NCBI GenBank assembly: GCA_937903325.1
Contig: CALCZR010000060.1
Span: forward strand, 210,404 to 274,403
Source: an uncultured Candidatus Saccharibacteria bacterium
Lineage (GTDB): Bacteria > Patescibacteriota > Saccharimonadia > Saccharimonadales > AWTP1-31
Direction: 5' to 3'
Length of the DNA: 64,000 bases
In this document: piece after piece, positions 20,654 through 32,286 of the stretch
How the letters are laid out: each line of letters begins with the position of its first letter
Numbering within the stretch: the stretch's first letter is position 1
Translations under genes and position numbers: made by a program
The notes under the pieces: generated by a model
Seen by the model: only the letters and a program-made list of their open reading frames with translations
Told to the model about the DNA's origin: nothing
Database searches by the model: none

Positions 20654-21760
20654 CTAGCTGAATATCCCTCTTCTGGGATTCTCGTTAAAAGACCTGAGGA
20701 TCTCCTGTTGTTGCTTACTAAGTTTAGTTGGGGTATCTACTACTAGCGTCACAATGTGCGCTCCTCGGCCACTACCTCGCAGATGCGGCACACCATGACC
20801 AGATAGCTTAAAATCTGTACCGCTCTGGGTACCAGCGGGAACCTTCATGCGCACGGGGCCATCTACTGTTTGGACTTCAATCTCGGTTCCCAGTGCAGCA
20901 TCTACCATACCGATATGCTCTTCGCTTAGAATAAGGTCACCCTCACGGGTGAAGTGCTTGTGAGCTTTCACTCGTACATGTACGTATAAATCACCTTTTG
21001 GTGCGTTGGCCATGGCTTCGCCTTGCTCACGCAAGCGTATGGTAGCCCCGTCGTCTATACCGGCCGGGATCTTAATAGTAATATCCTGTGTCTTAAGTTT
21101 CGTGCCCTTGCCGTGACAAACGGTACAAGCTTTTTCTGGTACCTTACCGGTACCCTTACAGGTCGGACAAATACTTGCCTGCTGGATATTTCCAAAGACC
21201 GTTTGGGTAACGCGCATAACCTGCCCTGAACCCTTACAGGTATCGCAGGTCTTGAGTTCATGACCTGGTTCAGCAGTCGTGCCCTTACAGTGTTCGCAAG
21301 TGTCTTCTATGTTCACATGGATTTCATGTTCCTTGCCGAAGATAGCTTCTTCGAAGGTAAGATCTACGCTCGTCTCGACATCTCGTCCTCGTGACTGACG
21401 CTGAGATTGCCCGCCCATGCCACCGCCAAAGAAACTACCAAAGATATCACCAAGACCTAGGTCGCCAAAGTCAAAGTTTATGTTCTGTCCACCATAGCCA
21501 CCACCAAACGGATTGCCACCAGGACCGTCACTGGCTGCGCTGGTACCAACGCCAGCATGACCGAACTGGTCGTAGCGTTGTCGTTTACGCTCGTCCTTGA
21601 GGACTTCGTATGCCTCATTAATTTCCTGGAACTTAGCTTCGTCCCCACCTTCTTTATCCGGGTGGTGTTCAATAGCTTTCTTGCGGAAAGCTTTCTTTAT
21701 TTCGTCGTCAGAAGCACTTTTGCTGACGCCAAGGGCTTCGTAGTAATCTCGCTTACTCAT
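20654..21760 (-). CDS. dnaJ: molecular chaperone DnaJ
   Basis: J domain with HPD, G/F-rich region, four CxxCxGxG zinc motifs. Confidence 0.95.
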   Translation of the reverse strand: MSKRDYYEALGVSKSASDDEIKKAFRKKAIEHHPDKEGGDEAKFQEINEAYEVLKDERKRQRYDQFGHAGVGTSAASDGPGGNPFGGGYGGQNINFDFGDLGLGDIFGSFFGGGMGGQSQRQSRGRDVETSVDLTFEEAIFGKEHEIHVNIEDTCEHCKGTTAEPGHELKTCDTCKGSGQVMRVTQTVFGNIQQASICPTCKGTGKVPEKACTVCHGKGTKLKTQDITIKIPAGIDDGATIRLREQGEAMANAPKGDLYVHVRVKAHKHFTREGDLILSEEHIGMVDAALGTEIEVQTVDGPVRMKVPAGTQSGTDFKLSGHGVPHLRGSGRGAHIVTLVVDTPTKLSKQQQEILRSFNENPRRGIFS

Positions 21761-21770
21761 TCATATTATT

Positions 21771-21797
21771 TTAGCACTTGAAGGGCTTGAGTGCCAG
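21771..21797. promoter_or_regulatory. CIRCE-like HrcA operator upstream of dnaJ
   Basis: TTAGCACTT-N9-GAGTGCCAG versus consensus TTAGCACTC-N9-GAGTGCTAA; 10 nt from the dnaJ ATG. Confidence 0.7.
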
Positions 21798-21805
21798 AAT
21801 AAATG

Positions 21806-22357
21806 CTAGTACCAGCCGTACTCCCGCTTGTGTTTGAGTGCACCTAAAATTGAACCGTAGCGATCTTCACAATAGGCTTTGAAGAATCTCATTTGCGTAA
21901 CAGGATTACGACGCCAGTCCGGCCCGAATGGTGCCATTTTCTTAGGAGGTGTAGCTTGTGGTAAGCCATAGCCTACCTCAGCTGATTCGTTTTTTGCTAT
22001 GTAGTCGTCTGGGCAATCTCCATGATGACCTTGCCACCGTGTAGCGCACCAACCTCCCGACTCCTGGCCAACAATTGCATCTGTTGCTGGTTGTTCAGAT
22101 TCTTCAATACCCGCAAGATCCATCACCATATCTTTGTCAGTCACTTGCCCACCATCCATATATGCTGACTGGGGGTCTAGATTAGCAATAAAACCCAAAC
22201 ATTGCTCCACATCTGGCTCATTTCGACAGTACTCAAGTGATGCCTTTATCTGCTCTGGAGTACAGCCAGCACCTACTAGCCCAACAGTCCCCGCCAGCCC
22301 GATTGCAAGCATCTGACGCATGCGACTTACCTCGTAGCCTCCAGATAGTTCACTCAT
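21806..22357 (-). CDS. lipoprotein with C-terminal Apf-like / cell-wall-associated domain
   Basis: RBS GAAGGAG before the ATG at 22357. Lipobox LVGAGC. C-terminus GYGLPQATPPKKMAPFGPDWRRNPVTQMRFF...YGWY. Confidence 0.45.
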   Translation of the reverse strand: MSELSGGYEVSRMRQMLAIGLAGTVGLVGAGCTPEQIKASLEYCRNEPDVEQCLGFIANLDPQSAYMDGGQVTDKDMVMDLAGIEESEQPATDAIVGQESGGWCATRWQGHHGDCPDDYIAKNESAEVGYGLPQATPPKKMAPFGPDWRRNPVTQMRFFKAYCEDRYGSILGALKHKREYGWY

Positions 22358-22602
22358 ATTTTCTCCTTCTCTAATACACGCAAAAAACATATGCGTGTAG
22401 CTATACCAGTGGATAGCAATTGATTAAGTGTCAGATTGTAAGCCGTCTTGTGTGTTGAGCAAGCTCAGCGATTAGGCTTAAGATCTAAACCTCTCAGGTT
22501 TGCGTGGAGCTCTTCCACTCCCTGAGCGGTATTACGTTAGATCGGTTTGACAACATATATTTTGACACAGCTTTGCACTAGAGTCAATAGCTTATGCTTA
22601 CA

Positions 22603-22657: not shown

Positions 22658-22891
22658 TTACCGGGCTGAGGGGTCTTTGCCCTCTCTAAGGTTAGTGATA
22701 ATCCGGTGAAAATCAGCGGACACACCAGCATCTCCTGGATCCATTCGAGCTTCTGGATGTGCAGCCATTACTTTGGCAAACACTTCCTCTGCAGACGGCG
22801 GTTCTGCGAAACCCCGTTCAGGCTGAAATGCGTCTCTAAACTCCGCTACGCTACCAAAACCATCCGGCAAAGCTCCTTCTGGGCCTCCCAT
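22658..22891 (-). CDS. hypothetical 77-aa acidic protein, translationally coupled to dnaK
   Basis: TAATG stop/start overlap with dnaK at 22891. No recognisable motif. Confidence 0.45.
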   Translation of the reverse strand: MGGPEGALPDGFGSVAEFRDAFQPERGFAEPPSAEEVFAKVMAAHPEARMDPGDAGVSADFHRIITNLREGKDPSAR

Positions 22892-24804
22892 TACTTGCTT
22901 TCTTTCTCGTCAACGACTTCGCCTTCTACTGGCTCGTCTTTGTCTGACTTCTTGTCGTCGTCGGCTTCGTCCTCAGAAGCTGCATCCTTGCTGGCTTCTT
23001 CGTACATCTTGGCACCGATCGGCATAATAGCCTCAGTTAGTTCTTTAGCAGCTTTCTCAAATTCTTCAGCGTCTGCTTTCTCATCTGCTACAACTTTCTT
23101 GGCCACTTCAACTGCTTCATCAATCTTCTTAGCATCGTCTTCGGAAATCTTGTCTTTGTTATCTGACTTCATTTTCTCAGCCTGGTAGATAGCACTGTCG
23201 AGTTGATTCTTGGCCTCGATGCCTTCACGCTTTTTCTTGTCTTCTTCGGCATGAGCTTCAGCTTCCTTAGCCATCTTCTCGACTTCGTCTTTAGAAAGAC
23301 CTGAACTACCCTGGATGGTAATAGTTTGCTCTTTACCAGAGCCCTTGTCCTTGGCGGTTACGTTCAAGATACCGTTTGCGTCTAGGTTAAAGGTCACTTC
23401 GATCTGTGGTACACCACGAGGTGCAGCAGGAATACCGTCAAGGACAAATCGGCCGAGGCTCTTGTTATCGGTTACAAATTCACGCTCACCTTGCACAACG
23501 TGAATCTCTACCTGGTTCTGGTTATCTGCAGCGGTAGAGAATACTTCGCTCTTGCTAGAAGGAATGGTCGTGTTTCGCTCGATAAGCTTAGTAGCGACGC
23601 CACCAAGGGTCTCAATACCAAGAGACAATGGTGTTACGTCTAGGAGTAGTACGTCCTTGACGTCACCTTGTAATACACCACCTTGGATAGCAGCACCAAT
23701 GGCTACCACTTCGTCAGGGTTGACACCCTGCATGGGGTCTTTACCAAAGATCTTCTTTACCTTCTCAATAACCGCTGGCATACGGGTCATACCACCAACG
23801 AGAACTACAGCGTCAATGTCGCTGGCCTTAAGCTTGGCGTCCTTAAGGGCCTTTTCACATGGGATAGCAGTCTTGTCTATGAGATCACCAACAAGGGTTT
23901 CAAGCTTAGCTCGAGACAGTTTGTACTCGAAGTGCTTAGGGCCATCTGCATCTGCGGTAAGGAACGGCAAGTTAATATCTACTTCATTCGTTGTAGACAA
24001 TTCAATTTTAGCTTTTTCTGCTTCATCACGCAGACGCTGCATAGCGGCTTTGTCGTCAGTTACATCAACACCAGAGTCTTTCTTAAACTCATCCACCAGG
24101 TGATTCACAATAACCCGGTCAAAGTCAGCACCACCCAGGTGAGTATCACCATTGGTAGACTTTACTTCAAAGACTCCGTCACCAAGTTCCAGAATAGAAA
24201 CGTCAAAGGTACCACCACCAAGGTCAAAAACAGCAATCTTTTCGTCGCTCTTACTGCCCTTATCGAGGCCGTATGCAAGCGCAGCAGCCGTTGGTTCGTT
24301 AATAATACGCTTCACTTCAAGACCGGCGATCTTACCAGCATCCTTAGTAGCTTGCCGCTGTGAGTCATCGAAGTAAGCAGGAACGGTAATAACCGCTTCA
24401 GTTACTTTACCTCCGGTAAACGCTTCGGCATCTGCTTTTAGTTTGCTTAGCACCATAGCGCTGATCTCTTCAGGGCTGTACTCTTTGTCGCCCATCTTTA
24501 CTTTAACGCCATTGCCACTCTTGACGATTTCGTAGCCCATGAGCTTGAGATCACGCTGCACTTCCTTATCGTTCCAATTTCGTCCAATAAGTCGCTTAGC
24601 TTCATAAATAGTGTTACTTGGGTTGGTAACCATCTGGCGGCGTGCCACCTGACCAACGAGGCGTTCGTCATTCTTGTTTTTGGCTACTACTGACGGTGTC
24701 GTACGAGCACCTTCACTGTTAGCAATAATCTCAGGCTTACCTGACTGCATAACAGCCATGGCTGAGTTAGTTGTTCCGAGGTCGATTCCGATAATTTTAC
24801 CCAT
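22891..24804 (-). CDS. dnaK: molecular chaperone DnaK (Hsp70)
   Basis: 637 aa with [27 protein letters not shown]. Confidence 0.97.
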
Positions 24805-24852: not shown

Positions 24853-24879
24853 TTAGCAGTGTACTCGTTAGAGTGCTAA
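24853..24879. promoter_or_regulatory. CIRCE operator (dnaK-proximal)
   Basis: TTAGCAGTG-N9-GAGTGCTAA; 49 nt upstream of the dnaK ATG. Confidence 0.75.
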
Positions 24880-24888
24880 TGTAATTGT

Positions 24889-24918
24889 ATCATATAAAAA
24901 CTGGCACTCTCATGTCAA
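24889..24918 (-). promoter_or_regulatory. candidate dnaK promoter TTGACA-N18-TATGAT
   Basis: The -35 lies in the spacer of the distal CIRCE-like repeat, and the -10 lies 10 nt upstream of the proximal CIRCE. Confidence 0.45.
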
Positions 24919-24927
24919 GAGTGCCAA
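24901..24927. promoter_or_regulatory. second CIRCE-like inverted repeat (dnaK-distal)
   Basis: CTGGCACTC-N9-GAGTGCCAA. Confidence 0.6.
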
Positions 24928-24953: not shown

Positions 24954-26402
24954 CTACGAAACAGGATCGGTTGGATCTTGTGTTGGCGTAATTACGCTTC
25001 CACCAAGTGGTTCGGTGCTAGCGGTATCGTCATTAACCGTGCCAGGCTTAACAGGAGACGCCCCTGCTGCGCTAGCAGTCTTACTTGCCCCAACCTTTTT
25101 CTCTATCTGGTCTAGGGTATCTGTCGACTCCACACTTGCCTTGCCCGTCTTTAGTGTTTCTACTGGTGTTGTATCGGAACTCTTAACCACCGTAGGCATC
25201 TGTAGAGGTGACATCATAGGGTCCTCATCTGCACCGGTCTTATTCATGCCGTTCACAAACACTGTATTGCCAGACGGACCGCTTGGGCGCAGGGGTCGGT
25301 TCTTGAACCAGCGAACAATAAGCAAGATAAAGATGATAGCCAGTATCGCTGCCGCACCCGGGATTACAAACTTCATTATGTCGAAGTTCTTCTCGAGCTT
25401 CAGGTCAAACTTCTGGGCATCTGTAGCAGTAGCACTACTCACCACCGTAATATCTTTGGTTGCAGCCCCTAGTACACCCTTAGCCTCGAGCTTGTACTTG
25501 CCTGGCTTAACCCCGAAGAAGCTCGCAACACCAGAATCATCTGTCGTTGCCGTCTGTTTATTAAGTGTTACCTTCACATTAGCGGCAGGCCTGCCGTCTT
25601 CACCCAAGATAGTGACCGAGACGACACCGTCGTATACTGGTTCATTTGAACTTTGGTCTGGTGTTGAGACTACTGGATCACCAGTATTTGTGGCTACTGG
25701 GGCTCGCGACCCGTTACCAGAACTACTGCCCGTAGACTTATTGGTTGTGCCACCACTAGAGGAGCCGCCTGAATTAGAGCCGCCAGATCCACCACTATTA
25801 GTAGGAGTAGATGGGGTGGAAGGGTTAGATGGTGTAGTGGGGTTGGTTGGCGTCGTTGGAGTGGATGGATTACTAATAGTAAAGGTCTTAGTTGCTGGCT
25901 GGGTATCCCAGACGTTTACTCCACTACCATCTTCAGAAATCTCTGAGCCACTGGTGAAACTTACGTTAGCAGTACCAGTAGTAGTCGCCTTAAATGTAAC
26001 GGTGGCTATGAGCTGATTCTGTGTAACGCTGTTGGGTGGAGTAAGGAAGCAAACAAGGTTCACGAGGCCATTGGAGCCGGTCTGGAATGGACAGGTGGCA
26101 AACTGACTACCTGCATTTGAGGCGCTCACAAACTGCAGTTTACTTGCATCGTAGGCCATATTAACGTTAACGGCGTTTACTGCAGTACCACCACTGTTCT
26201 CGTATACACCGACCGAGAATGTAGCATCCTTTGTAATATTCGCACTTGCTGACGTAGCTGAGAAGGTTGCATTACCGGTGGCCGCCTTACTGGCGTTAAG
26301 TAAATACGTTCCTATGCCGGCAACTGCTAGCACAGCTAAGACACTAACAACTTGCTTGATCTTCAGGCTGGCGATTAGTTTTCGTTTGTTCTTTTTATTC
26401 AT
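24954..26402 (-). CDS. membrane-anchored cohesin-domain protein (cohesin, P/T/S/G linker, CarboxypepD_reg-like, TM, cytoplasmic tail)
   Basis: Cohesin-like ATFSVGVYENSGGTAVNAVNVNMAYDASKLQFVSAS...ATVTFKATTTGTANVSF. TM helix FVIPGAAAILAIIFILLIV around residues 353-371 of 482. Confidence 0.6.
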   Translation of the reverse strand: MNKKNKRKLIASLKIKQVVSVLAVLAVAGIGTYLLNASKAATGNATFSATSASANITKDATFSVGVYENSGGTAVNAVNVNMAYDASKLQFVSASNAGSQFATCPFQTGSNGLVNLVCFLTPPNSVTQNQLIATVTFKATTTGTANVSFTSGSEISEDGSGVNVWDTQPATKTFTISNPSTPTTPTNPTTPSNPSTPSTPTNSGGSGGSNSGGSSSGGTTNKSTGSSSGNGSRAPVATNTGDPVVSTPDQSSNEPVYDGVVSVTILGEDGRPAANVKVTLNKQTATTDDSGVASFFGVKPGKYKLEAKGVLGAATKDITVVSSATATDAQKFDLKLEKNFDIMKFVIPGAAAILAIIFILLIVRWFKNRPLRPSGPSGNTVFVNGMNKTGADEDPMMSPLQMPTVVKSSDTTPVETLKTGKASVESTDTLDQIEKKVGASKTASAAGASPVKPGTVNDDTASTEPLGGSVITPTQDPTDPVS

Positions 26403-28072
26403 TATTTTGTCCAGTTGTTAAGTACCATCTTAAGGTCAGCGTAGTTGACCACGCCCTGTCCATCCGTATTGTCGACGTTTCCTTGCTCACGAGTCTTGCC
26501 ACTACCTTTATTGTAGTTATTGAGCACCATGACAAGGTCAGTGTAGTTAACTATACCGTACCCAGCTTCACCAGACTTTGTCGTATCGCCAGGAACTGGT
26601 TGGGTAGGTACGGGGTTGGCAACTGTAACACTAATCGTTACCAGACTGCTCACATTGCCGGCTTTGTCGTACGCCCGCACACCTATGGTGTGGTTGGTAT
26701 TGGTGACCTTCGTCGTATCCCAGATGAAGTTGTGTGCCGCACCGCTACCGGAAGTTACATCTGCCTGGAAAACGTTGTCTACGTAGAAGGCTACTTTTTG
26801 CATACCACTACCACCATTAGGATCGGTAGCGTTAGCAGTAATAGTGACATTGCTCTTGAGGCCTGTAGCGTTATTAGCCGGATTAGTAATACTAACGCTC
26901 GGCGCTGCCGTATCTGGACTACTCACCGCCACGCTAATGCTGGCCGTATTATTATTCTCATTACTCTCGGTAACCTTATTCGTACTGTCCACTACTGCCG
27001 CCATAGCTACCGTACCCGCTGTGGCATTCCACTGTGAGCTCGCGGTAATAGTTGCTGTTGCGTTAGCAGCAAGAGCTGGCGTGTAGGTAGTTTGTGCAAA
27101 GGATGTGCCATTGGCTGTGAAGTTAATGACATTCTGTGCACTCGTCGTGGGGAAGTTTGAGTTGTTCTTTATCGTCGCCATCACCGTAGCTTTGTCACCA
27201 ACGTTCAACGAGGTCGGAGATACCGTGACCGCTGTCACAATAAGGTCAGGGTCACCATTCTGCACGTTCACCGTGACACTACTACTGGTTTTAGAGTTGC
27301 CCGTCGGATCAAATGCCTTGGCCGTAATCGTATGATTACCATTTGGAACAGAACCTGACTTGGTATTCCAGTCATACGAGAATGGTGCAGATGTATCATT
27401 ATTTATCGTTACGCCATCCACCTGGAACTCTACGCGGACCGTGCCACTGTCATCACTGGCCGTTGCAGCCAAGTTAACGGTATTACTCACCGTACCGGCA
27501 GATGGTGCTGTTAGCAGGACACTTGGAGGAGTACCATCTGACTCATCTGCACAGTTATTACCTACTGTGCCATCAGAAGCAACCGTATTATCTGGCACAC
27601 AAGTGCTCGCACCGGTATCCAGCACAAACATTACCTTATCAAGCAATACTCCTTCACTTGTCCCGAGCAGTCGTACCTTGTGGAGACCCTGTGCTAACTG
27701 CATAGAAGACTTATTACCATTAGTCTGTACGTCGATCCAGGTCCAGGTGTTTGGCGTTATCGAATTCTTTCCTACGATCATACAGTAACCGTCTACTTCA
27801 AGCATATAGTTACTGTTAGCTGTGCTCGGAATCTGGATACGGGTCCATACCCGGTAGTTGTTAGTACCAGGCTGTGTAATGTTGATTTTCTTATCACCGT
27901 CAAAAGTGACCACACCGAAATCTCCGCCGGGAGTACAGTCAGCCTTGGCTTTAGTGGTATGGAATAGTATTCCTCCGCTCAGGAACAGGGCTACAAGTAT
28001 AAAGAGTGGTATCCACTTTCTGGATATAATCCGCATGGATTTATAGTAACTCATAAATCGCTTATGGTACAC
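26402..28072 (-). CDS. secreted protein with CBM-like, 2 Ig-like and CARDB domains plus a C-terminal dockerin-like duplicated segment
   Basis: C-terminus: ...GYGIVNYTDLVMVLNNY... and ...DNTDGQGVVNYADLKMVLNNW. CARDB-like DLIVTAVTVSPTSLNVGDKATVMATIKN. Confidence 0.55.
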   Translation of the reverse strand: MYHKRFMSYYKSMRIISRKWIPLFILVALFLSGGILFHTTKAKADCTPGGDFGVVTFDGDKKINITQPGTNNYRVWTRIQIPSTANSNYMLEVDGYCMIVGKNSITPNTWTWIDVQTNGNKSSMQLAQGLHKVRLLGTSEGVLLDKVMFVLDTGASTCVPDNTVASDGTVGNNCADESDGTPPSVLLTAPSAGTVSNTVNLAATASDDSGTVRVEFQVDGVTINNDTSAPFSYDWNTKSGSVPNGNHTITAKAFDPTGNSKTSSSVTVNVQNGDPDLIVTAVTVSPTSLNVGDKATVMATIKNNSNFPTTSAQNVINFTANGTSFAQTTYTPALAANATATITASSQWNATAGTVAMAAVVDSTNKVTESNENNNTASISVAVSSPDTAAPSVSITNPANNATGLKSNVTITANATDPNGGSGMQKVAFYVDNVFQADVTSGSGAAHNFIWDTTKVTNTNHTIGVRAYDKAGNVSSLVTISVTVANPVPTQPVPGDTTKSGEAGYGIVNYTDLVMVLNNYNKGSGKTREQGNVDNTDGQGVVNYADLKMVLNNWTK

Positions 28073-28108: not shown

Positions 28109-30022
28109 TTATTCAAAAGCTCCGATCCTTGTCCTGCTATTTAACCTTCCGCTTTCCGGATAACTCCCGGGAACCTTCTGCATAGAAGACGGTTTGGTAA
28201 TAGATGCACTGGCCCTAAAACAGTCACGGTTTGTCACAAGTACACAATTAAAGCTCGGGTTGCCTTCGACATTACCAACCCATTGTGATGGCATCGCCCC
28301 ACCGCTCACTATTTGGCCCAGGCTTTGATACCGGTGACTGGTATCGGCAGGGTCATATAGACTATTCCAGGCGAAATAGTTATCGTTGGCAAGCACCTGG
28401 CTGTAGAAAACATTTCCATCCCAGTCCGAGCCATCCTCTACCCGTCCCGTTCCTCTCACGATGCCACCTTCGTAGGAATAGAAGATGTTATTGGTAAATG
28501 TCGCGTCTTTGGTAAGAAGACCTGCGGTTGACTGAACCGTCTTACGAAGATTGCCTGAGTTACCAGCAAAGTAAAGAGTATTGTAGTAGAAATGGATATT
28601 CCCCGGAAGGTCTACGGAGTCATTCTGCATCTTTATGGAGTAAGAGGGGCTCCAAACCAACACACCATTACCATTTATTGCTGGGCGGTTAGCTATAAAT
28701 AAGTTCTCGTAGACATAGGTTGGCCCAACACTCGCCGGTGTTGGTGAAAATGGCTCAAAGGAGTCGTATACTGTATTACCTCTAACGATCAGGTTCTTGA
28801 ACGGTGCCTCAGGCTCGATTCCGGGCCCAGCATGATCGTGCACAAGATTATTTGAGATAACCGAATTACTGTTGTAGTACCTAGTGTCAGTCGATCGAGC
28901 GAACAGGGTTGGGAAGTGAATACCGGCCCAATATCCGTAAGTGTGATTATTGTCGACGACGATATTACTAATATCTTTGCTTGTTGCTCGCACAATAATA
29001 GCCTGGTTCTCCATAGTCTTTGAGCCAGCTCGCTCCTTAACATCAGAACCGTCCCAAGTACGCTCAAATCCACCATGGATGGTACTGTTTTTAATGGTTA
29101 CATTAGACGTGTCGAATGCTCCGACTCCGGCTCCGCCACCAGTTATATCAACTCCGTCGACAGTAACATTATTGCTACTACGCGCCAGTACGTTAGCATT
29201 GCCATACATAATCTTGAGCTTTGAGCCACTCACACTATTGAGACTAATATTATTAGCACTCTGGATATCAAATGTTGCCGTCCTACCGCCAATGTATAGC
29301 GGTGCAGTTGGTGGTTGACCATTACTCGTGGCCACCAGCACGCCACCGTTAAGCCAGCTGTTATTCACGAAGACTCCGGGGAGTTGATTGACAGTTTGTT
29401 TGCCCATAAGCTGGAAATAATCAGGGTAAGACCACTGCTGTTTGCCATCTGCGGTATAAATGGTATTGCCATCCGGTGCGAACTCGTCGCGACCTAAATC
29501 GTGTCTCCATACACCGTTATCAACATAGGTCCAGTTAACGCCACTGATAAATTCCGGGATTGCCCCATTCACCGTAACGTCACCATTTCCAAATGGCTCT
29601 ATAATAAGGTCGTTTTTCTGGATTACTATTTGCTCAATATACGTCCCAGCTAATATACGAATTCTCGTTGGGCCGTTGGCTAGTTCTACCGCTCTTTTTA
29701 TAGACTGGACAGCGTTAGCTTGTGTACTGCCGTCCTTAGTATTATTACCAGAAGTACTCACAAAGAGGTCTTTGTAGGGTTGGCCAAACCGAATACCATT
29801 ACCGCCACTTGCTGAGTCATCGCCAAACGTTCTAGCAGTTCCTACACCGTTCTCCGCCTCAAGGCCTACCGAAGATGTAGCCGCCTTACTCAGCGCTAAC
29901 GTAACTAAGCCAAGGATGACAATCGCTACAAAGGCATATACATACTTAGCTCTTTCCTGTGCTCCGGCATACTTAAGAAGTGATTTTATTTTCTTCTGTA
30001 TTTGTTTAATGATTACCTTCAT
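28109..30022 (-). CDS. secreted right-handed parallel beta-helix repeat protein
   Basis: N-terminal TM/signal. Repeated NxxxxN/beta-helix turns (NVTIKNSTIHGG, VISNNLVHDH, LIVRGNTVYDS). Confidence 0.6.
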   Translation of the reverse strand: MKVIIKQIQKKIKSLLKYAGAQERAKYVYAFVAIVILGLVTLALSKAATSSVGLEAENGVGTARTFGDDSASGGNGIRFGQPYKDLFVSTSGNNTKDGSTQANAVQSIKRAVELANGPTRIRILAGTYIEQIVIQKNDLIIEPFGNGDVTVNGAIPEFISGVNWTYVDNGVWRHDLGRDEFAPDGNTIYTADGKQQWSYPDYFQLMGKQTVNQLPGVFVNNSWLNGGVLVATSNGQPPTAPLYIGGRTATFDIQSANNISLNSVSGSKLKIMYGNANVLARSSNNVTVDGVDITGGGAGVGAFDTSNVTIKNSTIHGGFERTWDGSDVKERAGSKTMENQAIIVRATSKDISNIVVDNNHTYGYWAGIHFPTLFARSTDTRYYNSNSVISNNLVHDHAGPGIEPEAPFKNLIVRGNTVYDSFEPFSPTPASVGPTYVYENLFIANRPAINGNGVLVWSPSYSIKMQNDSVDLPGNIHFYYNTLYFAGNSGNLRKTVQSTAGLLTKDATFTNNIFYSYEGGIVRGTGRVEDGSDWDGNVFYSQVLANDNYFAWNSLYDPADTSHRYQSLGQIVSGGAMPSQWVGNVEGNPSFNCVLVTNRDCFRASASITKPSSMQKVPGSYPESGRLNSRTRIGAFE

Positions 30023-30112: not shown

Positions 30113-31006
30113 CTACAAGATGGTCTGGATTTTAGCCTGCACACAGCCAGCAAAGGCTGTGTAGCCATTGTCATTTAAGTGCTTAATGTCCACTTCTTGG
30201 GTAAACCAATCTAACTGTACTATTCGATAAAAGTTTGGGTTAAGCCAGCCAGGCTGAGATGGATCCTGTAGTGCGATTGTGCAGTCAGCCACGGTACCAG
30301 CAACGTTACCTGTCGTCGTTAACCATGAATTGTACTCGTTACGTGCAGTTAGCATTGCAGTACTCCATGCACTTGCCTGGCCATTGGGTTTGGGTGGTGG
30401 CTGCTGAGCGACCCATACTACTTTGACACTTTTGTTGCTCAAGTAGGTGTTTATACCCCGTACGGCCTGTATTATTTGAGCCGACGTAGATCCGTAGAAG
30501 TAGTCATTCGTTGATCCTTCTATAACTACTATCTTCGGGATGCCGCAGGCGTCAAAGTACTGCTTTAGCTGCGTCCCAATGGACACCACATTCTCATTGA
30601 GGTACTTGATATCCATAGTGAACGCCGCCCCTGGATACGCCACCATGTGCTCACTATAATTAGGAATATCTATAAAGCGTGGATAACCACCGTTGCCCGT
30701 AGCGTTGCTGTCCCCGTTAAATTGAATGACATTTCCGCCAGTTGGGCAGGCTATGAAGGGTGGTGCCTTATCATAAAACTTCATGGCCGACCCACCAGAT
30801 GCCGTGGGGTCAAGCGTAGACATAGCCGGTCGAGTAGCAGCCCCGCTTTCTGGCTCAAGACTGCTGGCAGTGGCTGCCGAGGAGATCCGGAGGAGCACCA
30901 CGCCAATAACTGAAAAAACGAGGACGCTTAGCCCCAGACCAAGCTGCTTGCCAGCAGCTCGCTTGGCTTTCCGAAAAGCCGATGTACGTTTTAGTTTGAC
31001 TTTCAT
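30113..31006 (-). CDS. secreted SGNH/GDSL-family hydrolase
   Basis: Block I FNGDSNATG, block III EGSTNDY, block V DIKHLN. ATG at 31006 preferred over TTG at 31015. Confidence 0.6.
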   Translation of the reverse strand: MKVKLKRTSAFRKAKRAAGKQLGLGLSVLVFSVIGVVLLRISSAATASSLEPESGAATRPAMSTLDPTASGGSAMKFYDKAPPFIACPTGGNVIQFNGDSNATGNGGYPRFIDIPNYSEHMVAYPGAAFTMDIKYLNENVVSIGTQLKQYFDACGIPKIVVIEGSTNDYFYGSTSAQIIQAVRGINTYLSNKSVKVVWVAQQPPPKPNGQASAWSTAMLTARNEYNSWLTTTGNVAGTVADCTIALQDPSQPGWLNPNFYRIVQLDWFTQEVDIKHLNDNGYTAFAGCVQAKIQTIL

Positions 31007-31046
31007 GCTACACAAGCATTATAGCAATGCCTGCCAAACAATCTAC

Positions 31047-31547
31047 CTACCCGCGTTTGACGCGAACCATAGCATGCCGGATTACCTGATCACCGATCTG
31101 GTAACCAGCCTGTAGTTCTTCACTGACAATCTCGTTGTCGCCATCCCCGTCGTCCATGCCAACAGCTTCGTGGACGTGCGGATTAAAGTGCTCACCTACG
31201 GTCTTAATTCGTTGTACACCCATGGAACTCAGGGTAGCTTCGAATTGCTTCACCACACCCTGCACGCCCTTTATGTAGTCATTGCCTTCGAGTTCAGCTG
31301 GAACGTGTTTGAGCGCCCGCTCAAAGTTGTCTATTACCGGTAGGAGTTCTTCAATGACCTGGGATTTAATCGTAGACTTCAGGCTAGCTATTTGTTCGTC
31401 GTGACGCCGGCGAATATTCATGGCATCTGCTCGCTCGCGCTGCAAAGCTTCTGTTAGTTCGGCGACTTGCTGCAAGACCTTATGCATCTCGTCTGCTAAT
31501 GCTGCATCTTCAGCAGGCTGGTCGTTAGTTGGTTTGTTCTTAGGCAT
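31047..31547 (-). CDS. grpE: nucleotide exchange factor GrpE
   Basis: 166 aa with RERADAMNIRRR, LLPVIDNFERAL, HEAV...V. Confidence 0.9.
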   Translation of the reverse strand: MPKNKPTNDQPAEDAALADEMHKVLQQVAELTEALQRERADAMNIRRRHDEQIASLKSTIKSQVIEELLPVIDNFERALKHVPAELEGNDYIKGVQGVVKQFEATLSSMGVQRIKTVGEHFNPHVHEAVGMDDGDGDNEIVSEELQAGYQIGDQVIRHAMVRVKRG

Positions 31548-32250
31548 ACAGTACTTCCTCCAATGCTTCTCCGGTGCGGCGTACTAAACTCATGACGTCC
31601 CGGTAACTTTGGCGAGTGGGGCCAAGCACCCCGATGTAGCTACGGTCACTAAAGTTACTACGGAAGCGGCTGACAATCAGTGAACATCCTGCACTACGAC
31701 CAATAGGATTCTCTTGGCCAATATAGACACTAAGCGGTTCATTGGGGGCCGCCTCGTAAAGCCATGGCTCTAGGTTATCCAGTAACCGTGCGACTTCACG
31801 TACTTGCCCGCTGTTCATAAACTCGGGCTGTCCAAACAAGTTAGATAGTCCACTCATATATAGCTGGTCGCCAATGGTCGCAATGCCCAGATTGTGCGTC
31901 AGATCCACCAGCGTATCTACGGCGTTCTTAATAACTTGCTCACTTACACCGCCGCCCGATACGCGGGTAGCTAAAGCCTTCTCTGCCCGACGTTCTGCAG
32001 GAGATCCCGGAATACTGGCAGCTAGATTGTTTACGTAGAAACGATAACCTTTGTCGGTCGGAATACGACCAGCACTAGTATGAGGCTGGTTAATAAAGCC
32101 GTGTTTTTCAAGCTCAGCCATTTCAGATCGAATAGTGGCTGATGACACATTGAAAACTTTGGCTAACAAACTAGAGCCTACGGGGCTTGCTACTTCGGCG
32201 TACTGTTCGACAATTGCCTGCAGAATTTTCTGCTGTCGTTCACTTAACAT
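31540..32250 (-). CDS. hrcA: heat-inducible transcription repressor HrcA (compact, 236 aa)
   Basis: MLSERQQKILQAIVEQY...VGSSLLA...SSATIRSEMAELE...HTSAGRIPTDKGYRFYV. 8-nt overlap with grpE. Confidence 0.85.
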   Translation of the reverse strand: MLSERQQKILQAIVEQYAEVASPVGSSLLAKVFNVSSATIRSEMAELEKHGFINQPHTSAGRIPTDKGYRFYVNNLAASIPGSPAERRAEKALATRVSGGGVSEQVIKNAVDTLVDLTHNLGIATIGDQLYMSGLSNLFGQPEFMNSGQVREVARLLDNLEPWLYEAAPNEPLSVYIGQENPIGRSAGCSLIVSRFRSNFSDRSYIGVLGPTRQSYRDVMSLVRRTGEALEEVLYA

Positions 32251-32259
32251 GCTCCTATT

Positions 32260-32286
32260 TTAGCACTTAAGGTGCAGGAGTGCCAA
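32260..32286. promoter_or_regulatory. CIRCE-like HrcA operator upstream of hrcA
   Basis: TTAGCACTT-N9-GAGTGCCAA; 9 nt from the hrcA ATG. Overlaps the 3' end of the upstream ORF. Confidence 0.7.

What the first reader, a model, noticed from the sequence alone, without database searches (positions are those of the whole stretch)
24954..28072. Translationally coupled dockerin-like / cohesin gene pair: a minimal surface-display module
The upstream gene (26402-28072) encodes a secreted CBM/Ig/CARDB protein. It ends in two copies of a dockerin-like segment (..GIVNYTDLVMVLNNY.. and ..DNTDGQGVVNYADLKMVLNNW). The downstream gene overlaps it by TAATG. That gene encodes an N-terminal cohesin-like domain, a P/T/S/G linker, a CarboxypepD_reg-like domain, one TM helix and a cytoplasmic tail of about 110 aa. 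This is the logic of an anchoring scaffoldin plus its cargo, outside any cellulosome context, in what looks like a reduced and possibly epibiotic genome. The neighbouring beta-helix and SGNH genes lack a visible dockerin.
Basis: partly seen in the sequence, partly recalled or inferred. Interest (0 to 1): 0.65.

Follow-up and report, generated by a model that had tools for sequence, protein, structure and literature searches.

The report
Membrane-anchored cohesin–dockerin pair in Saccharibacteria
Two overlapping genes in a Saccharibacteria-like (tiny, probably epibiotic) bacterium encode a secreted sugar-binding stalk protein ending in a divergent dockerin and a membrane protein starting with a true cohesin, most likely a conserved two-part "plug and socket" that holds the stalk on the cell surface.

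Summary
P1 (26402-28072, minus) is signal peptide, CBM35/6-like module, Big_7, CARDB, Big_7 and a duplicated dockerin tail. P2 (24954-26402, minus) overlaps it by one base (TAATG). P2 is signal peptide, cohesin, S/T/G/P linker, CarboxypepD_reg, one TM helix and a 116-aa tail.

Routine full-length Pfam scans miss both modules. Deeper tests support them:
- The cohesin domain alone reaches the Pfam threshold, and 34 of 37 relatives match Cohesin.
- The family profile hits solved cohesins.
- The AF2 model (pLDDT 95.6) matches cohesins best.
- The dockerin scores below Pfam threshold and its first Ca loop is degenerate. It aligns to canonical dockerins (hhalign 95%), and orthologues score above threshold.

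The pair, always overlapping by 1 or 4 nt, recurs in six other lineages, five in named Saccharibacteria MAGs. It always lies between hrcA-grpE and dnaK where those flanks are held. One relative adds a cohesin+dockerin adaptor.

The best reading is a non-cellulosomal, TM-anchored, single-cohesin scaffoldin displaying a glycan-binding protein. It is a new variant of a known kind, of moderate interest.

The parts
26402..28072 (-). P1: secreted cargo protein, 556 aa (signal peptide, CBM35/6-like, Big_7, CARDB, Big_7, dockerin)
   Evidence: ORF. Pfam Big_7 and CARDB. The N-terminus MYHKRFM.YY is shared with orthologues P0151 and P0152, which supports the GTG start; P0154, P0155 and P0161 begin differently.
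27941..28072 (-). P1 signal peptide (residues 1-44, ends AKA, cleavage before D45)
   Evidence: Read from the sequence: basic N-region, hydrophobic core, AxA site. This is an inference; no predictor was run.
27548..27940 (-). P1 N-terminal CBM35/CBM6-like beta-sandwich (residues 45-175) with conserved Cys
   Evidence: Profile A6 hits CBM35 2vzp at E 9e-4. AF2 pLDDT is 81.6. Foldseek top hits are CBM35/CBM6 modules with TM 0.45-0.5.
27320..27526 (-). P1 Big_7 Ig-like domain 1
   Evidence: Pfam PF17957, residues 183-251.
26939..27250 (-). P1 CARDB domain
   Evidence: Pfam PF07705, E 8.2e-15, residues 275-378.
26615..26911 (-). P1 Big_7 Ig-like domain 2
   Evidence: Second Big_7 stretch. NCBIfam OmpL47-type hit at residues 407-484.
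26405..26590 (-). P1 C-terminal divergent dockerin (residues 495-556)
   Evidence: Pfam Dockerin_1 is sub-threshold at 11-15 bits. hhalign to canonical dockerins gives prob 95.4%, E 1.9e-8. A local HMM built without P1 gives E 3.8e-7. Orthologues are PF00404-positive.
26513..26590 (-). Dockerin repeat 1: loop with a 5-aa insertion and no canonical Ca ligands at positions 1, 3, 5, followed by a helix
   Evidence: Alignments A2 and A5; sequence.
26411..26479 (-). Dockerin repeat 2: EF-hand-like loop N-T-D-G-Q-G-V-V-N-Y-A-D, followed by a helix
   Evidence: Register matches the calmodulin EF loop and dockerin alignments.
26402..26406 (-). TAATG stop/start overlap between P1 and P2
   Evidence: A 1-nt or 4-nt overlap is conserved in all seven lineages examined.
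24954..26402 (-). P2: type I membrane anchor, 482 aa (signal peptide, cohesin, linker, CarboxypepD_reg, TM, cytoplasmic tail)
   Evidence: ORF. The architecture is shared by 57 of the 150 best family representatives.
26283..26402 (-). P2 signal peptide (residues 1-40, ...NASKA)
   Evidence: Read from the sequence. This is an inference.
25857..26279 (-). P2 cohesin module (residues 42-182) with two subfamily-invariant Cys (C104, C118)
   Evidence: Pfam Cohesin E 4.2e-5, 24.2 bits vs cut-off 24.1. 34 of 37 relatives match Cohesin. Profile hits 1g1k and 2vn5 at about E 2e-6. AF2 pLDDT is 95.6 and Foldseek top hits are cohesins. Cys conservation from A4.
25638..25856 (-). P2 low-complexity linker (73 aa; S18, T14, G12, P10, N8)
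   Evidence: Composition count.
25392..25622 (-). P2 CarboxypepD_reg-like beta-sandwich
   Evidence: Pfam PF13620, E 7.4e-8, 33.1 bits vs cut-off 32.3.
25305..25370 (-). P2 transmembrane helix (residues 345-366)
   Evidence: Hydrophobic stretch FVIPGAAAILAIIFILLIVRWF followed by KNRPLR.
24957..25304 (-). P2 cytoplasmic tail (116 aa) containing the conserved motif STDTLDQIEKKVGA at 25086-25127
   Evidence: Alignment A4 has invariant V424, D428, T429, I433, E434, K436, V437. The motif also occurs in 7 of the 150 best family representatives.
24853..24927 (.). Two CIRCE (HrcA operator) inverted repeats in the P2-dnaK spacer; they mark the downstream boundary of the pair
   Evidence: 4 matches in the window vs 0.02 expected. 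An overlapping promoter-like site was found.

Best explanation
P1 and P2 form a minimal, non-cellulosomal cohesin-dockerin surface-display module of a Saccharibacteria-like bacterium. Shown: P2 begins with a genuine cohesin-fold module. A low-complexity linker, a CarboxypepD_reg beta-sandwich, one TM helix and a conserved cytoplasmic tail follow it. Shown: P1 is a non-catalytic chain (CBM35/6-like module, Big_7, CARDB, Big_7) that ends in a divergent dockerin and has no other visible anchor. Shown: the two genes overlap by 1 or 4 nt in seven lineages. Inferred: both proteins are exported by Sec. P2 stays in the membrane as a type I protein, and the linker carries the cohesin out through the wall. 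P1's dockerin plugs non-covalently into P2's cohesin, probably with Ca bound at least in the second loop. The CBM is thereby presented at the tip of an Ig-like stalk. The stop/start overlap would couple translation and favour equal amounts of the two proteins. The most likely role is binding of a glycan, either on a host cell surface or in the environment.
For: Cohesin:
- The domain alone matches Pfam Cohesin at threshold.
- 34 of 37 relatives match Cohesin.
- The family profile hits solved cohesins 1g1k/2vn5 at about E 2e-6, and the NagJ cohesins.
- The AF2 model has pLDDT 95.6 and its best Foldseek hits are cohesins, TM 0.7-0.84.

Dockerin:
- hhalign to canonical dockerins gives 95.4%, E 1.9e-8, across both helices.
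- A dockerin profile that includes P1 hits solved dockerins first.
- Orthologues of P1 are PF00404-positive.
- The two repeats evolve in concert: 63% identity within a protein vs 38% between proteins, permutation p<1e-4. This is expected if both faces must fit one partner.

Pairing:
- The window holds exactly one cohesin and one dockerin.
- Gene order and overlap are conserved in the window, L005, L006, L007, L009, L010 and L014, although P2-type anchors share only 28-45% identity with P2 in alignment A4.
- L009 inserts a cohesin+Big_7+dockerin adaptor between a dockerin protein and the TM anchor, which is the logic of an adaptor scaffoldin.
- 10 of the 150 best cohesin-family representatives also carry a canonical dockerin, and 41 have 2-4 cohesin copies.

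Cargo: the N-terminal module is CBM35/6-like.
Against: - No interaction test was possible.
- P1's dockerin falls below the Pfam gathering score (11-15 vs 22.9 bits).
- The first Ca loop carries a 5-aa insertion and has G, A, Y where ligands are expected. Folding and Ca dependence may therefore differ from canonical dockerins.
- The Pfam Cohesin match of P2 is marginal and disappears in the full-length scan.
- Only 64 kb of the genome was seen, so other cohesins or dockerins may exist that change the pairing.
- In L012 a related dockerin protein sits next to hrcA with no cohesin within 11 kb.
- Export, signal-peptide cleavage and membrane topology are read from sequence only.
Confidence: 0.7

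Rival explanations
1. Both modules are real but are not each other's partners. P2's cohesin would hold other dockerin proteins encoded elsewhere, or P1 would dock on another cohesin. The adjacency would then reflect only shared regulation in the hrcA-dnaK locus.
For: Cellulosomal genomes often separate cognate partners (established knowledge). L012 has a related dockerin protein beside hrcA with no cohesin nearby. Only 64 kb of this genome was examined.
Against: The stop/start overlap is conserved in seven divergent lineages. There is one cohesin and one dockerin in 64 kb. The L009 chain of dockerin, cohesin+dockerin and cohesin-TM genes is in docking order.
Confidence: 0.12
2. The tail of P1 is a degenerate EF-hand-like remnant that no longer binds a cohesin, for example a Ca-dependent stabiliser or a wall-binding tag. 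The cohesin-fold module of P2 would serve as a glycan-binding or spacer beta-sandwich, so the two proteins act independently on the surface.
For: Dockerin_1 is sub-threshold. Loop 1 has lost its canonical ligands and gained an insertion. The single-sequence search hits calmodulin as well as anything else. Cohesins share their fold class with CBMs (established knowledge).
Against: Both helices keep near-identical surface residues (YT/YA, then LNN), and the repeats co-evolve within proteins. Close orthologues have fully canonical dockerins in the same gene position. L007 shares the same insertion and still keeps the overlapping pair.
Confidence: 0.08
3. The complex is mainly a transmembrane sensor. 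Glycan binding by P1's CBM would be passed through the cohesin-dockerin joint and the TM helix to P2's conserved cytoplasmic motif, which would signal inside the cell. The link with the HrcA/CIRCE heat-shock locus might be part of this.
For: The cytoplasmic motif [ST]DTLxxIExKVGA is conserved across anchors sharing 28-45% identity with P2. The pair always lies between CIRCE-controlled units.
Against: The tail matches no known signalling domain. Most of the tail is low-complexity and variable. There is no adjacent regulator gene. Nothing tested here addresses signalling.
Confidence: 0.1

Closest known systems
Cellulosomal anchoring scaffoldins with few cohesins (e.g. Clostridium thermocellum OlpA/OlpC/SdbA, Ruminococcus flavefaciens ScaE; named from my own knowledge)
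   Same: A cell-bound protein presents a cohesin outward on a linker and captures a secreted dockerin-bearing protein non-covalently. The L009 relative even has an adaptor with cohesin plus dockerin.
   Different: Anchoring is by one TM helix plus a conserved cytoplasmic tail, not by SLH modules or sortase. There is only one cohesin. The cargo has no catalytic domain. There is no enzyme set and no CBM3. The genes overlap and sit in a heat-shock locus.
Clostridium perfringens non-cellulosomal cohesin-dockerin complexes (GH84 NagJ/GH84C cohesin with NagH dockerin; PDB 2w1n, 2jh2, 2o4e, 2ozn, 2jnk)
   Same: These are the best structural matches to the P2 cohesin (E 9e-9 to 2e-8, TMt up to 0.84). 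They also match the sequence profiles of both modules. They too work outside cellulose degradation.
   Different: The C. perfringens modules sit on large secreted glycoside hydrolases and link enzymes to one another. Here a membrane protein holds a lectin-like stalk.
Archaeoglobus fulgidus non-cellulosomal cohesin (PDB 2xdh) and the wider set of non-cellulosomal cohesin/dockerin modules (Peer et al. 2009, cited in PMC10066038)
   Same: A cohesin fold in an organism without a cellulosome (rank 17). Isolated cohesin and dockerin modules are already known across many lineages.
   Different: Those cases are mostly unpaired modules without a defined partner or anchor. Here the partner gene is fixed by a conserved overlap.
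Dockerin-domain protein SEML1_0315 of Southlakia epibionticum (Saccharibacteria), essential for epibiotic growth (PMC10633639)
   Same: A Saccharibacteria envelope protein with Ig-like domains and a dockerin, proposed to target host glycans.
   Different: It is 927 aa and lies in another locus, next to a tRNA, with no adjacent cohesin gene. In that species hrcA-grpE-dnaK are contiguous with no insert. The paper does not mention cohesin. Orthology to P1 was not established.

Membership tests
Cohesin (Pfam PF00963) | Match to the family HMM at the curated gathering score | tested here: met
   The domain alone (P2 residues 36-185) scores 24.2 bits vs cut-off 24.1, E 4.2e-5. This is marginal, and the match is absent from the full-length scan. 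34 of 37 homologous domains match Cohesin, best E 4e-14.
Cohesin (Pfam PF00963) | Flattened beta-sandwich (jelly-roll) fold superposable on solved cohesins | tested here: met
   AF2 pLDDT 95.6, all-beta. The first 12 Foldseek PDB hits are all cohesins, with E 9e-9 to 6e-7 and TM 0.67-0.84. The sequence profile hits 1g1k/2vn5 at about E 2e-6 over the full length.
Cohesin (Pfam PF00963) | Binds a dockerin | not testable with these tools
Only indirect support exists, from conserved gene overlap.
Dockerin type I (Pfam PF00404) | Match to the family HMM at the curated gathering score | tested here: not met
   P1 scores 11.2 bits (full length) and 14.8 bits (tail alone) vs cut-off 22.9. Homology is nevertheless supported by hhalign at 95.4%. 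It is also supported by orthologues above threshold (L006 27.4 bits; precomputed PF00404 in P0152, P0154 and P0161, weak in P0155).
Dockerin type I (Pfam PF00404) | Tandem duplication of a segment of about 22 residues (loop plus helix) | tested here: met
   GIVNYTDLVMVLNNY and GVVNYADLKMVLNNW share 11 of 15 residues. Both helices align to dockerin profiles.
Dockerin type I (Pfam PF00404) | Two 12-residue EF-hand-like Ca loops with D/N at positions 1, 3, 5, 9, 12 | tested here: inconclusive
   Loop 2 reads N1, D3, Q5, G6, N9, D12, which is plausible. Loop 1 reads G1, A3, Y5 in the canonical register, or carries a 5-aa insertion after GDTT. It probably does not form a canonical site.
Dockerin type I (Pfam PF00404) | Ca-dependent folding and cohesin binding | not testable with these tools
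   Needs ITC or pull-down with and without EDTA, or co-folding with Ca.
Cellulosome | Several dockerin-bearing carbohydrate-active enzymes assembled on a multi-cohesin scaffoldin | tested here: not met
   The window holds one cohesin and one dockerin. P1 has no catalytic domain. The neighbouring beta-helix and SGNH proteins lack dockerins.
Cellulosome | Cell attachment of the anchoring scaffoldin by SLH modules or a sortase signal | tested here: not met
   No SLH or LPXTG was found. P2 has a TM helix and a cytoplasmic tail instead.
Non-cellulosomal cohesin-dockerin pair | Cohesin and dockerin on separate exported proteins of an organism without a cellulosome | tested here: met
   The genomic relatives are Saccharibacteria.
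CBM35/CBM6 (N-terminal module of P1) | Beta-jelly-roll fold and sequence similarity to CBM35/6 | tested here: inconclusive
   The profile E-value is 9e-4 to CBM35 2vzp. The Foldseek top hits are CBM35/6, but TM is only 0.45-0.5 and pLDDT is 81.6. Ligand-binding residues were not examined.

The most novel reading that the evidence does not exclude
The pair is a host-contact device specific to a clade of epibiotic Saccharibacteria. A lectin-tipped stalk would be plugged into a transmembrane cohesin receptor, and the receptor's conserved cytoplasmic motif ([ST]DTLxxIExKVGA) would report or regulate attachment. The device would be expressed from the HrcA/CIRCE-controlled chaperone locus, so that surface display is tied to stress or host contact. 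The same cohesin family (about 1,900 clusters at 50% identity; its Saccharibacteria anchors carry no informative name in public records) would then be a candidate partner for dockerin adhesins such as the essential SEML1_0315, although no cohesin was looked for in that species.
Probability: 0.12. Interest if true: 0.8.

Novelty: new variant of a known kind. Interest (0 to 1): 0.55.

Why it matters
How ultrasmall Saccharibacteria attach to their host bacteria is an open question. A genetic screen in Southlakia epibionticum found a dockerin-domain envelope protein essential for epibiotic growth but named no cohesin partner (PMC10633639).

This locus supplies a concrete and testable architecture. 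A membrane-anchored single-cohesin protein, named "hypothetical protein" in NCBI for at least one orthologue, is genetically welded to a dockerin-tipped, CBM-bearing stalk, and the arrangement is conserved across divergent Saccharibacteria.

It also shows that cohesin-dockerin assembly is built in at least one relative into a three-tier chain in genomes with no cellulosome. It further shows that routine full-length HMM annotation misses both modules here.

If binding is confirmed, the pair would be a small, orthogonal, naturally TM-anchored display system.

Tried and rejected
No interface model exists.
2. Word-index homology searches with the cohesin domain alone and with the dockerin tail alone returned nothing. 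The exhaustive HMMER search was needed.
3. Single-sequence PDB searches were uninformative. The cohesin domain hit only a phage lysin at E 0.06. The tail hit calmodulins at E about 0.01.
4. The search for related loci with the diverse cohesin alignment A1 failed for lack of a conserved stretch. It worked with the close-orthologue alignment A4 through the cytoplasmic motif.
5. I tested whether SEML1_0315, the essential dockerin protein of S. epibionticum, is the orthologue of P1. It is not supported: size and locus differ, it has no adjacent cohesin gene, and hrcA-grpE-dnaK are contiguous there. No Pfam accessions for these domains appear in the held supplements.
6. The cellulosome reading was rejected: no dockerin-bearing enzymes, no multi-cohesin scaffoldin, no SLH or sortase signal.
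7. The literature search found no description of a cohesin-dockerin pair in Saccharibacteria or Patescibacteria within the held library.
Full report
**Observation.**
P1 is 26402-28072 (556 aa, GTG start) and P2 is 24954-26402 (482 aa). The junction reads acaaaaTAATGaat, so the TAA stop of P1 and the ATG of P2 share one base.
- A full-length Pfam scan gives P1 two Big_7 domains (E 1e-29) and one CARDB (E 8e-15).
- The same scan gives P2 a CarboxypepD_reg domain just above threshold (33.1 vs 32.3 bits).
- In that scan Cohesin is absent and Dockerin_1 reaches only 11.2 bits against a cut-off of 22.9.

**The cohesin.**
- Scanned alone, P2 residues 36-185 match Pfam Cohesin at E 4.2e-5. The score is 24.2 bits against a gathering score of 24.1.
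- An exhaustive HMMER search of 1.84 billion cluster representatives finds 1,900 relatives at E<=1e-3 and 224 at E<=1e-10.
- Of 37 aligned domains (36 sampled relatives plus P2's own), 34 match Pfam Cohesin, best E 4e-14.
- A profile of these domains (A1) hits solved cohesins over their full length. The hits are C. cellulolyticum 1g1k/2vn5 at about E 2e-6 and the C. perfringens NagJ cohesins at about 2e-4.
- An AlphaFold2 model built on that alignment is very confident (pLDDT 95.6, pTM 0.88) and all-beta.
- Its best Foldseek matches in the PDB are cohesins. First come the non-cellulosomal C. perfringens modules 2w1n, 2jh2 and 2vo8. Then come 1g1k, 6kgc and 2vn5, and further down the archaeal 2xdh (E 9e-9 to 2e-6, TM up to 0.84).
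- I treat the cohesin assignment as established at the level of fold and homology.

**The dockerin.**
- The last 62 residues of P1 hold two similar segments, GIVNYTDLVMVLNNY and GVVNYADLKMVLNNW. They are the only such motifs in the window.
- Pfam Dockerin_1 aligns to them across positions 8-54 of 57, but below threshold (14.8 bits, E 0.03).
- Ten of the 150 best cohesin-family proteins carry canonical C-terminal dockerins. One of them, P0089, ends ...TITDLNQVLNNWTR, very like P1.
- Against an alignment of those ten (A3), P1's tail gives hhalign probability 95.4% and E 1.9e-8, with both helices aligned.
- A local HMM of A3 finds P1 at E 3.8e-7 and nothing else in the window.
- A profile that includes P1 (A2) hits solved dockerins first: 2y3n_B at 2e-10, then 4fl4 and the NagH dockerin 2jnk/2ozn.
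- Full-length orthologues of P1 (42-47% identity) have Pfam-recognised dockerins. The L006 orthologue scores 27.4 bits in my own scan.
- Alignment with these orthologues shows that P1 and its L007 relative have derived loops. There is a 5-residue insertion in loop 1 and 3 extra residues before loop 2.
- In the canonical 12-residue register, loop 2 reads N-T-D-G-Q-G-V-V-N-Y-A-D. That gives plausible ligands at positions 1, 3, 5, 9 and 12, and HMMER uses the same register against calmodulin.
- Loop 1 reads G-E-A-G-Y-G-I-V-N-Y-T-D, with no ligand at positions 1, 3 or 5.
- P1's tail is therefore a divergent dockerin homologue with one probably degenerate Ca site. It fails the Pfam threshold test but not the homology test.

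**Evidence bearing on partnership.**
- First, the 64-kb window contains exactly one cohesin (E 5e-53) and one dockerin.
- Second, the pair is conserved.
  - A scan of one genome per species found six loci, all in Candidatus Saccharibacteria MAGs.
  - In L005, L006, L007, L009 and L010 the gene upstream of the cohesin/TM gene ends in a dockerin and overlaps it.
  - L014, a metagenome contig (Logan) found independently through a P1 orthologue, shows the same arrangement.
  - The junctions are TAATG or TAGTG (1 nt shared) or ATGA (4 nt shared) in all seven lineages.
  - The anchors in alignment A4 share only 28-45% identity with P2.
- Third, L009 has three genes in docking order. They are a PKD/Ig protein with a dockerin, a protein with an N-terminal cohesin, a Big_7 domain and a C-terminal dockerin, and the cohesin/CarboxypepD_reg/TM anchor. 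This reproduces the cargo, adaptor and anchor logic of elaborate cellulosomes.
- Fourth, the two dockerin repeats are more alike within a protein (mean 63% over 14 positions) than the same repeat is between proteins (38%), with permutation p<1e-4. Concerted evolution of this kind is expected when both faces must fit the same, lineage-specific partner.
- None of this is a binding assay.

**Anatomy of the two proteins (coordinates verified).**
- P1:
  - signal peptide, residues 1-44 (AKA then D);
  - a Cys-containing N-terminal module, residues 45-175;
  - Big_7, CARDB and a second Big_7;
  - a P-rich hinge and the dockerin, residues 495-556.
- The P1 N-terminal module recurs in about 25 of the retrieved homologues. 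Its profile weakly hits CBM35 modules (2vzp at E 9e-4, also 2wz8 and 2w47). Its AF2 model (pLDDT 81.6) matches CBM35/CBM6 modules best, though only at TM 0.45-0.5.
- I call that module CBM35/6-like, not a proven member. P1 has no catalytic domain and no other anchor.
- P2:
  - signal peptide, about residues 1-40;
  - cohesin, residues 42-182, with two Cys invariant in the subfamily;
  - a 73-aa linker (S18, T14, G12, P10, N8);
  - CarboxypepD_reg, residues 261-337;
  - TM helix, residues 345-366, followed by KNRPLR;
  - a 116-aa tail.
- The cohesin, linker, CarboxypepD_reg and TM architecture is shared by 57 of the 150 best family representatives. The tail carries a motif, [ST]DTLxxIExKVGA, with invariant positions across orthologues. 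No Pfam or NCBIfam model matches the tail.

**Mechanism proposed.**
- Shown: the domain identities, the gene overlap and its conservation.
- Inferred: both proteins are Sec-exported. P2 is a type I membrane protein whose linker carries the cohesin beyond the wall. P1 is retained by dockerin-cohesin binding, so the CBM-like tip is displayed on an Ig-like stalk. The stop/start overlap couples translation and favours equal amounts.
- Given the Saccharibacteria context, the likely role is binding of a glycan on a host cell or in the environment. I put 0.7 on the display-pair reading.
- Rivals:
  - both modules are real but have other partners (0.12);
  - the dockerin is degenerate and non-binding (0.08);
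  - the complex is mainly a transmembrane sensor acting through the tail motif (0.10).

**Context.**
- The pair sits inside a split heat-shock locus. On the minus strand the order is hrcA (31540-32250), grpE (31047-31547), SGNH (30113-31015), beta-helix (28109-30022), P1, P2, dnaK (22891-24804), a 194-aa ORF, then dnaJ (20654-21760).
- Four CIRCE-like inverted repeats occur in the window, against 0.02 expected. One lies upstream of hrcA, two lie in the P2-dnaK spacer and one lies upstream of dnaJ. Promoter-like hexamers overlap them.
- The gaps from grpE to P1 are 31, 90 and 36 nt. One HrcA-controlled transcript running from hrcA to P2 is therefore possible but not shown.
- The same position between grpE and dnaK holds in L005, L006, L009 and L010. 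In L007 and L014 hrcA-grpE lie upstream, but dnaK is not confirmed in the DNA held.
- In Southlakia epibionticum the three chaperone genes are contiguous, with no insert.

**Comparison with what is known.**
- Non-cellulosomal cohesin and dockerin modules are known in all domains of life (Peer et al. 2009, as cited in PMC10066038). The C. perfringens toxin-complex modules are the nearest solved relatives.
- What differs here is the following combination:
  - a single-cohesin anchor held by a TM helix with a conserved cytoplasmic tail, in place of SLH modules or sortase;
  - a non-enzymatic, lectin-like cargo;
  - obligate gene overlap;
  - a fixed place in the chaperone locus;
  - occurrence in Saccharibacteria.
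- The Cell 2023 Tn-seq study names an essential dockerin-domain envelope protein (SEML1_0315) in a cultivated Saccharibacterium and does not mention cohesin. That protein is not demonstrably orthologous to P1.
- NCBI names an orthologue of P2 "hypothetical protein" (RTK95016.1).
- Full-text searches found no description of such a pair in Saccharibacteria or Patescibacteria in the held library.

**Verdict.**
Physical binding is untested.
- It is not a cellulosome. It works like a minimal anchoring scaffoldin with one cargo.
- Novelty: a new variant of a known kind. Interest: 0.55.

Noticed in passing
window 32260-32286, 24853-24879, 24901-24927, 21771-21797: There are four CIRCE-like inverted repeats (TTAGCACTC-N9-GAGTGCTAA, 2-3 mismatches; 0.02 expected by chance). 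They lie upstream of hrcA, twice upstream of dnaK, and upstream of dnaJ. The heat-shock locus is therefore split into separately HrcA-controlled units, with the surface-protein genes inserted between grpE and dnaK.
   Followed up: partly
L009 3868-7660 (Candidatus Saccharibacteria MAG CAYXHO010000009.1): Three consecutive overlapping genes form a three-tier chain. They are a PKD/Ig protein with a dockerin, a cohesin+Big_7+dockerin adaptor, and a cohesin/CarboxypepD_reg/TM anchor. This is an adaptor-scaffoldin arrangement in a genome without a cellulosome.
   Followed up: partly
window 25086-25127 (P2 residues 426-439): The cytoplasmic tail motif STDTLDQIEKKVGA ([ST]DTLxxIExKVGA) is conserved in anchors that share only 28-45% identity with P2. 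It matches no Pfam or NCBIfam family, and its function is unknown.
   Followed up: partly
window beta-helix protein 28109-30022 (about residues 58-90) and SGNH protein 30113-31015 (about residues 50-80); L012 8341-9114: Right after their signal peptides, both neighbouring secreted proteins carry a short shared motif, LE-x-E-x-G...(D)..ASGG..[IM][RK]F. A GH16-like protein encoded between grpE and dnaK in another locus (L012, an ENA metagenome contig) carries it too. It looks like the first strands of a CBM6/35-type module without the rest. All three, and P2, also share an S(K/R)AAT-like cleavage region.
   Followed up: partly
window 25857-26279 (P2 C104 and C118): Two cysteines in the cohesin module are invariant in the anchor subfamily (alignment A4). 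This suggests a disulfide that typical cellulosomal cohesins lack. It was not checked in the model coordinates.
   Followed up: no
window 21806-22390 (minus strand): A 194-aa ORF lies between dnaK and dnaJ and has one N-terminal hydrophobic segment. It has no Pfam hit at E<=1. It contains a GQESGGW...GYGLPQ stretch reminiscent of small wall-active (transglycosylase-like) domains. That resemblance is recalled from memory and was not tested.
   Followed up: no
L012 5001-6242 (ENA ERZ25039483 contig_37768): A shorter relative of P1 (CBM-like module, Big_7, canonical dockerin) lies immediately upstream of hrcA-grpE. No cohesin gene occurs within the 11 kb held. dnaK on this contig is split into three fragments, which suggests assembly frameshifts.
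   Followed up: no
protein family of P2 residues 36-185: The cohesin family is large: 1,900 clusters at 50% identity with E<=1e-3. Of the best 150 representatives, 41 have 2-4 tandem cohesins, 84 have a later TM segment and 10 also carry a dockerin. The few members looked up carry no informative name in the source databases: mostly 'hypothetical protein' or no name, and one 'chitodextrinase'.
   Followed up: partly
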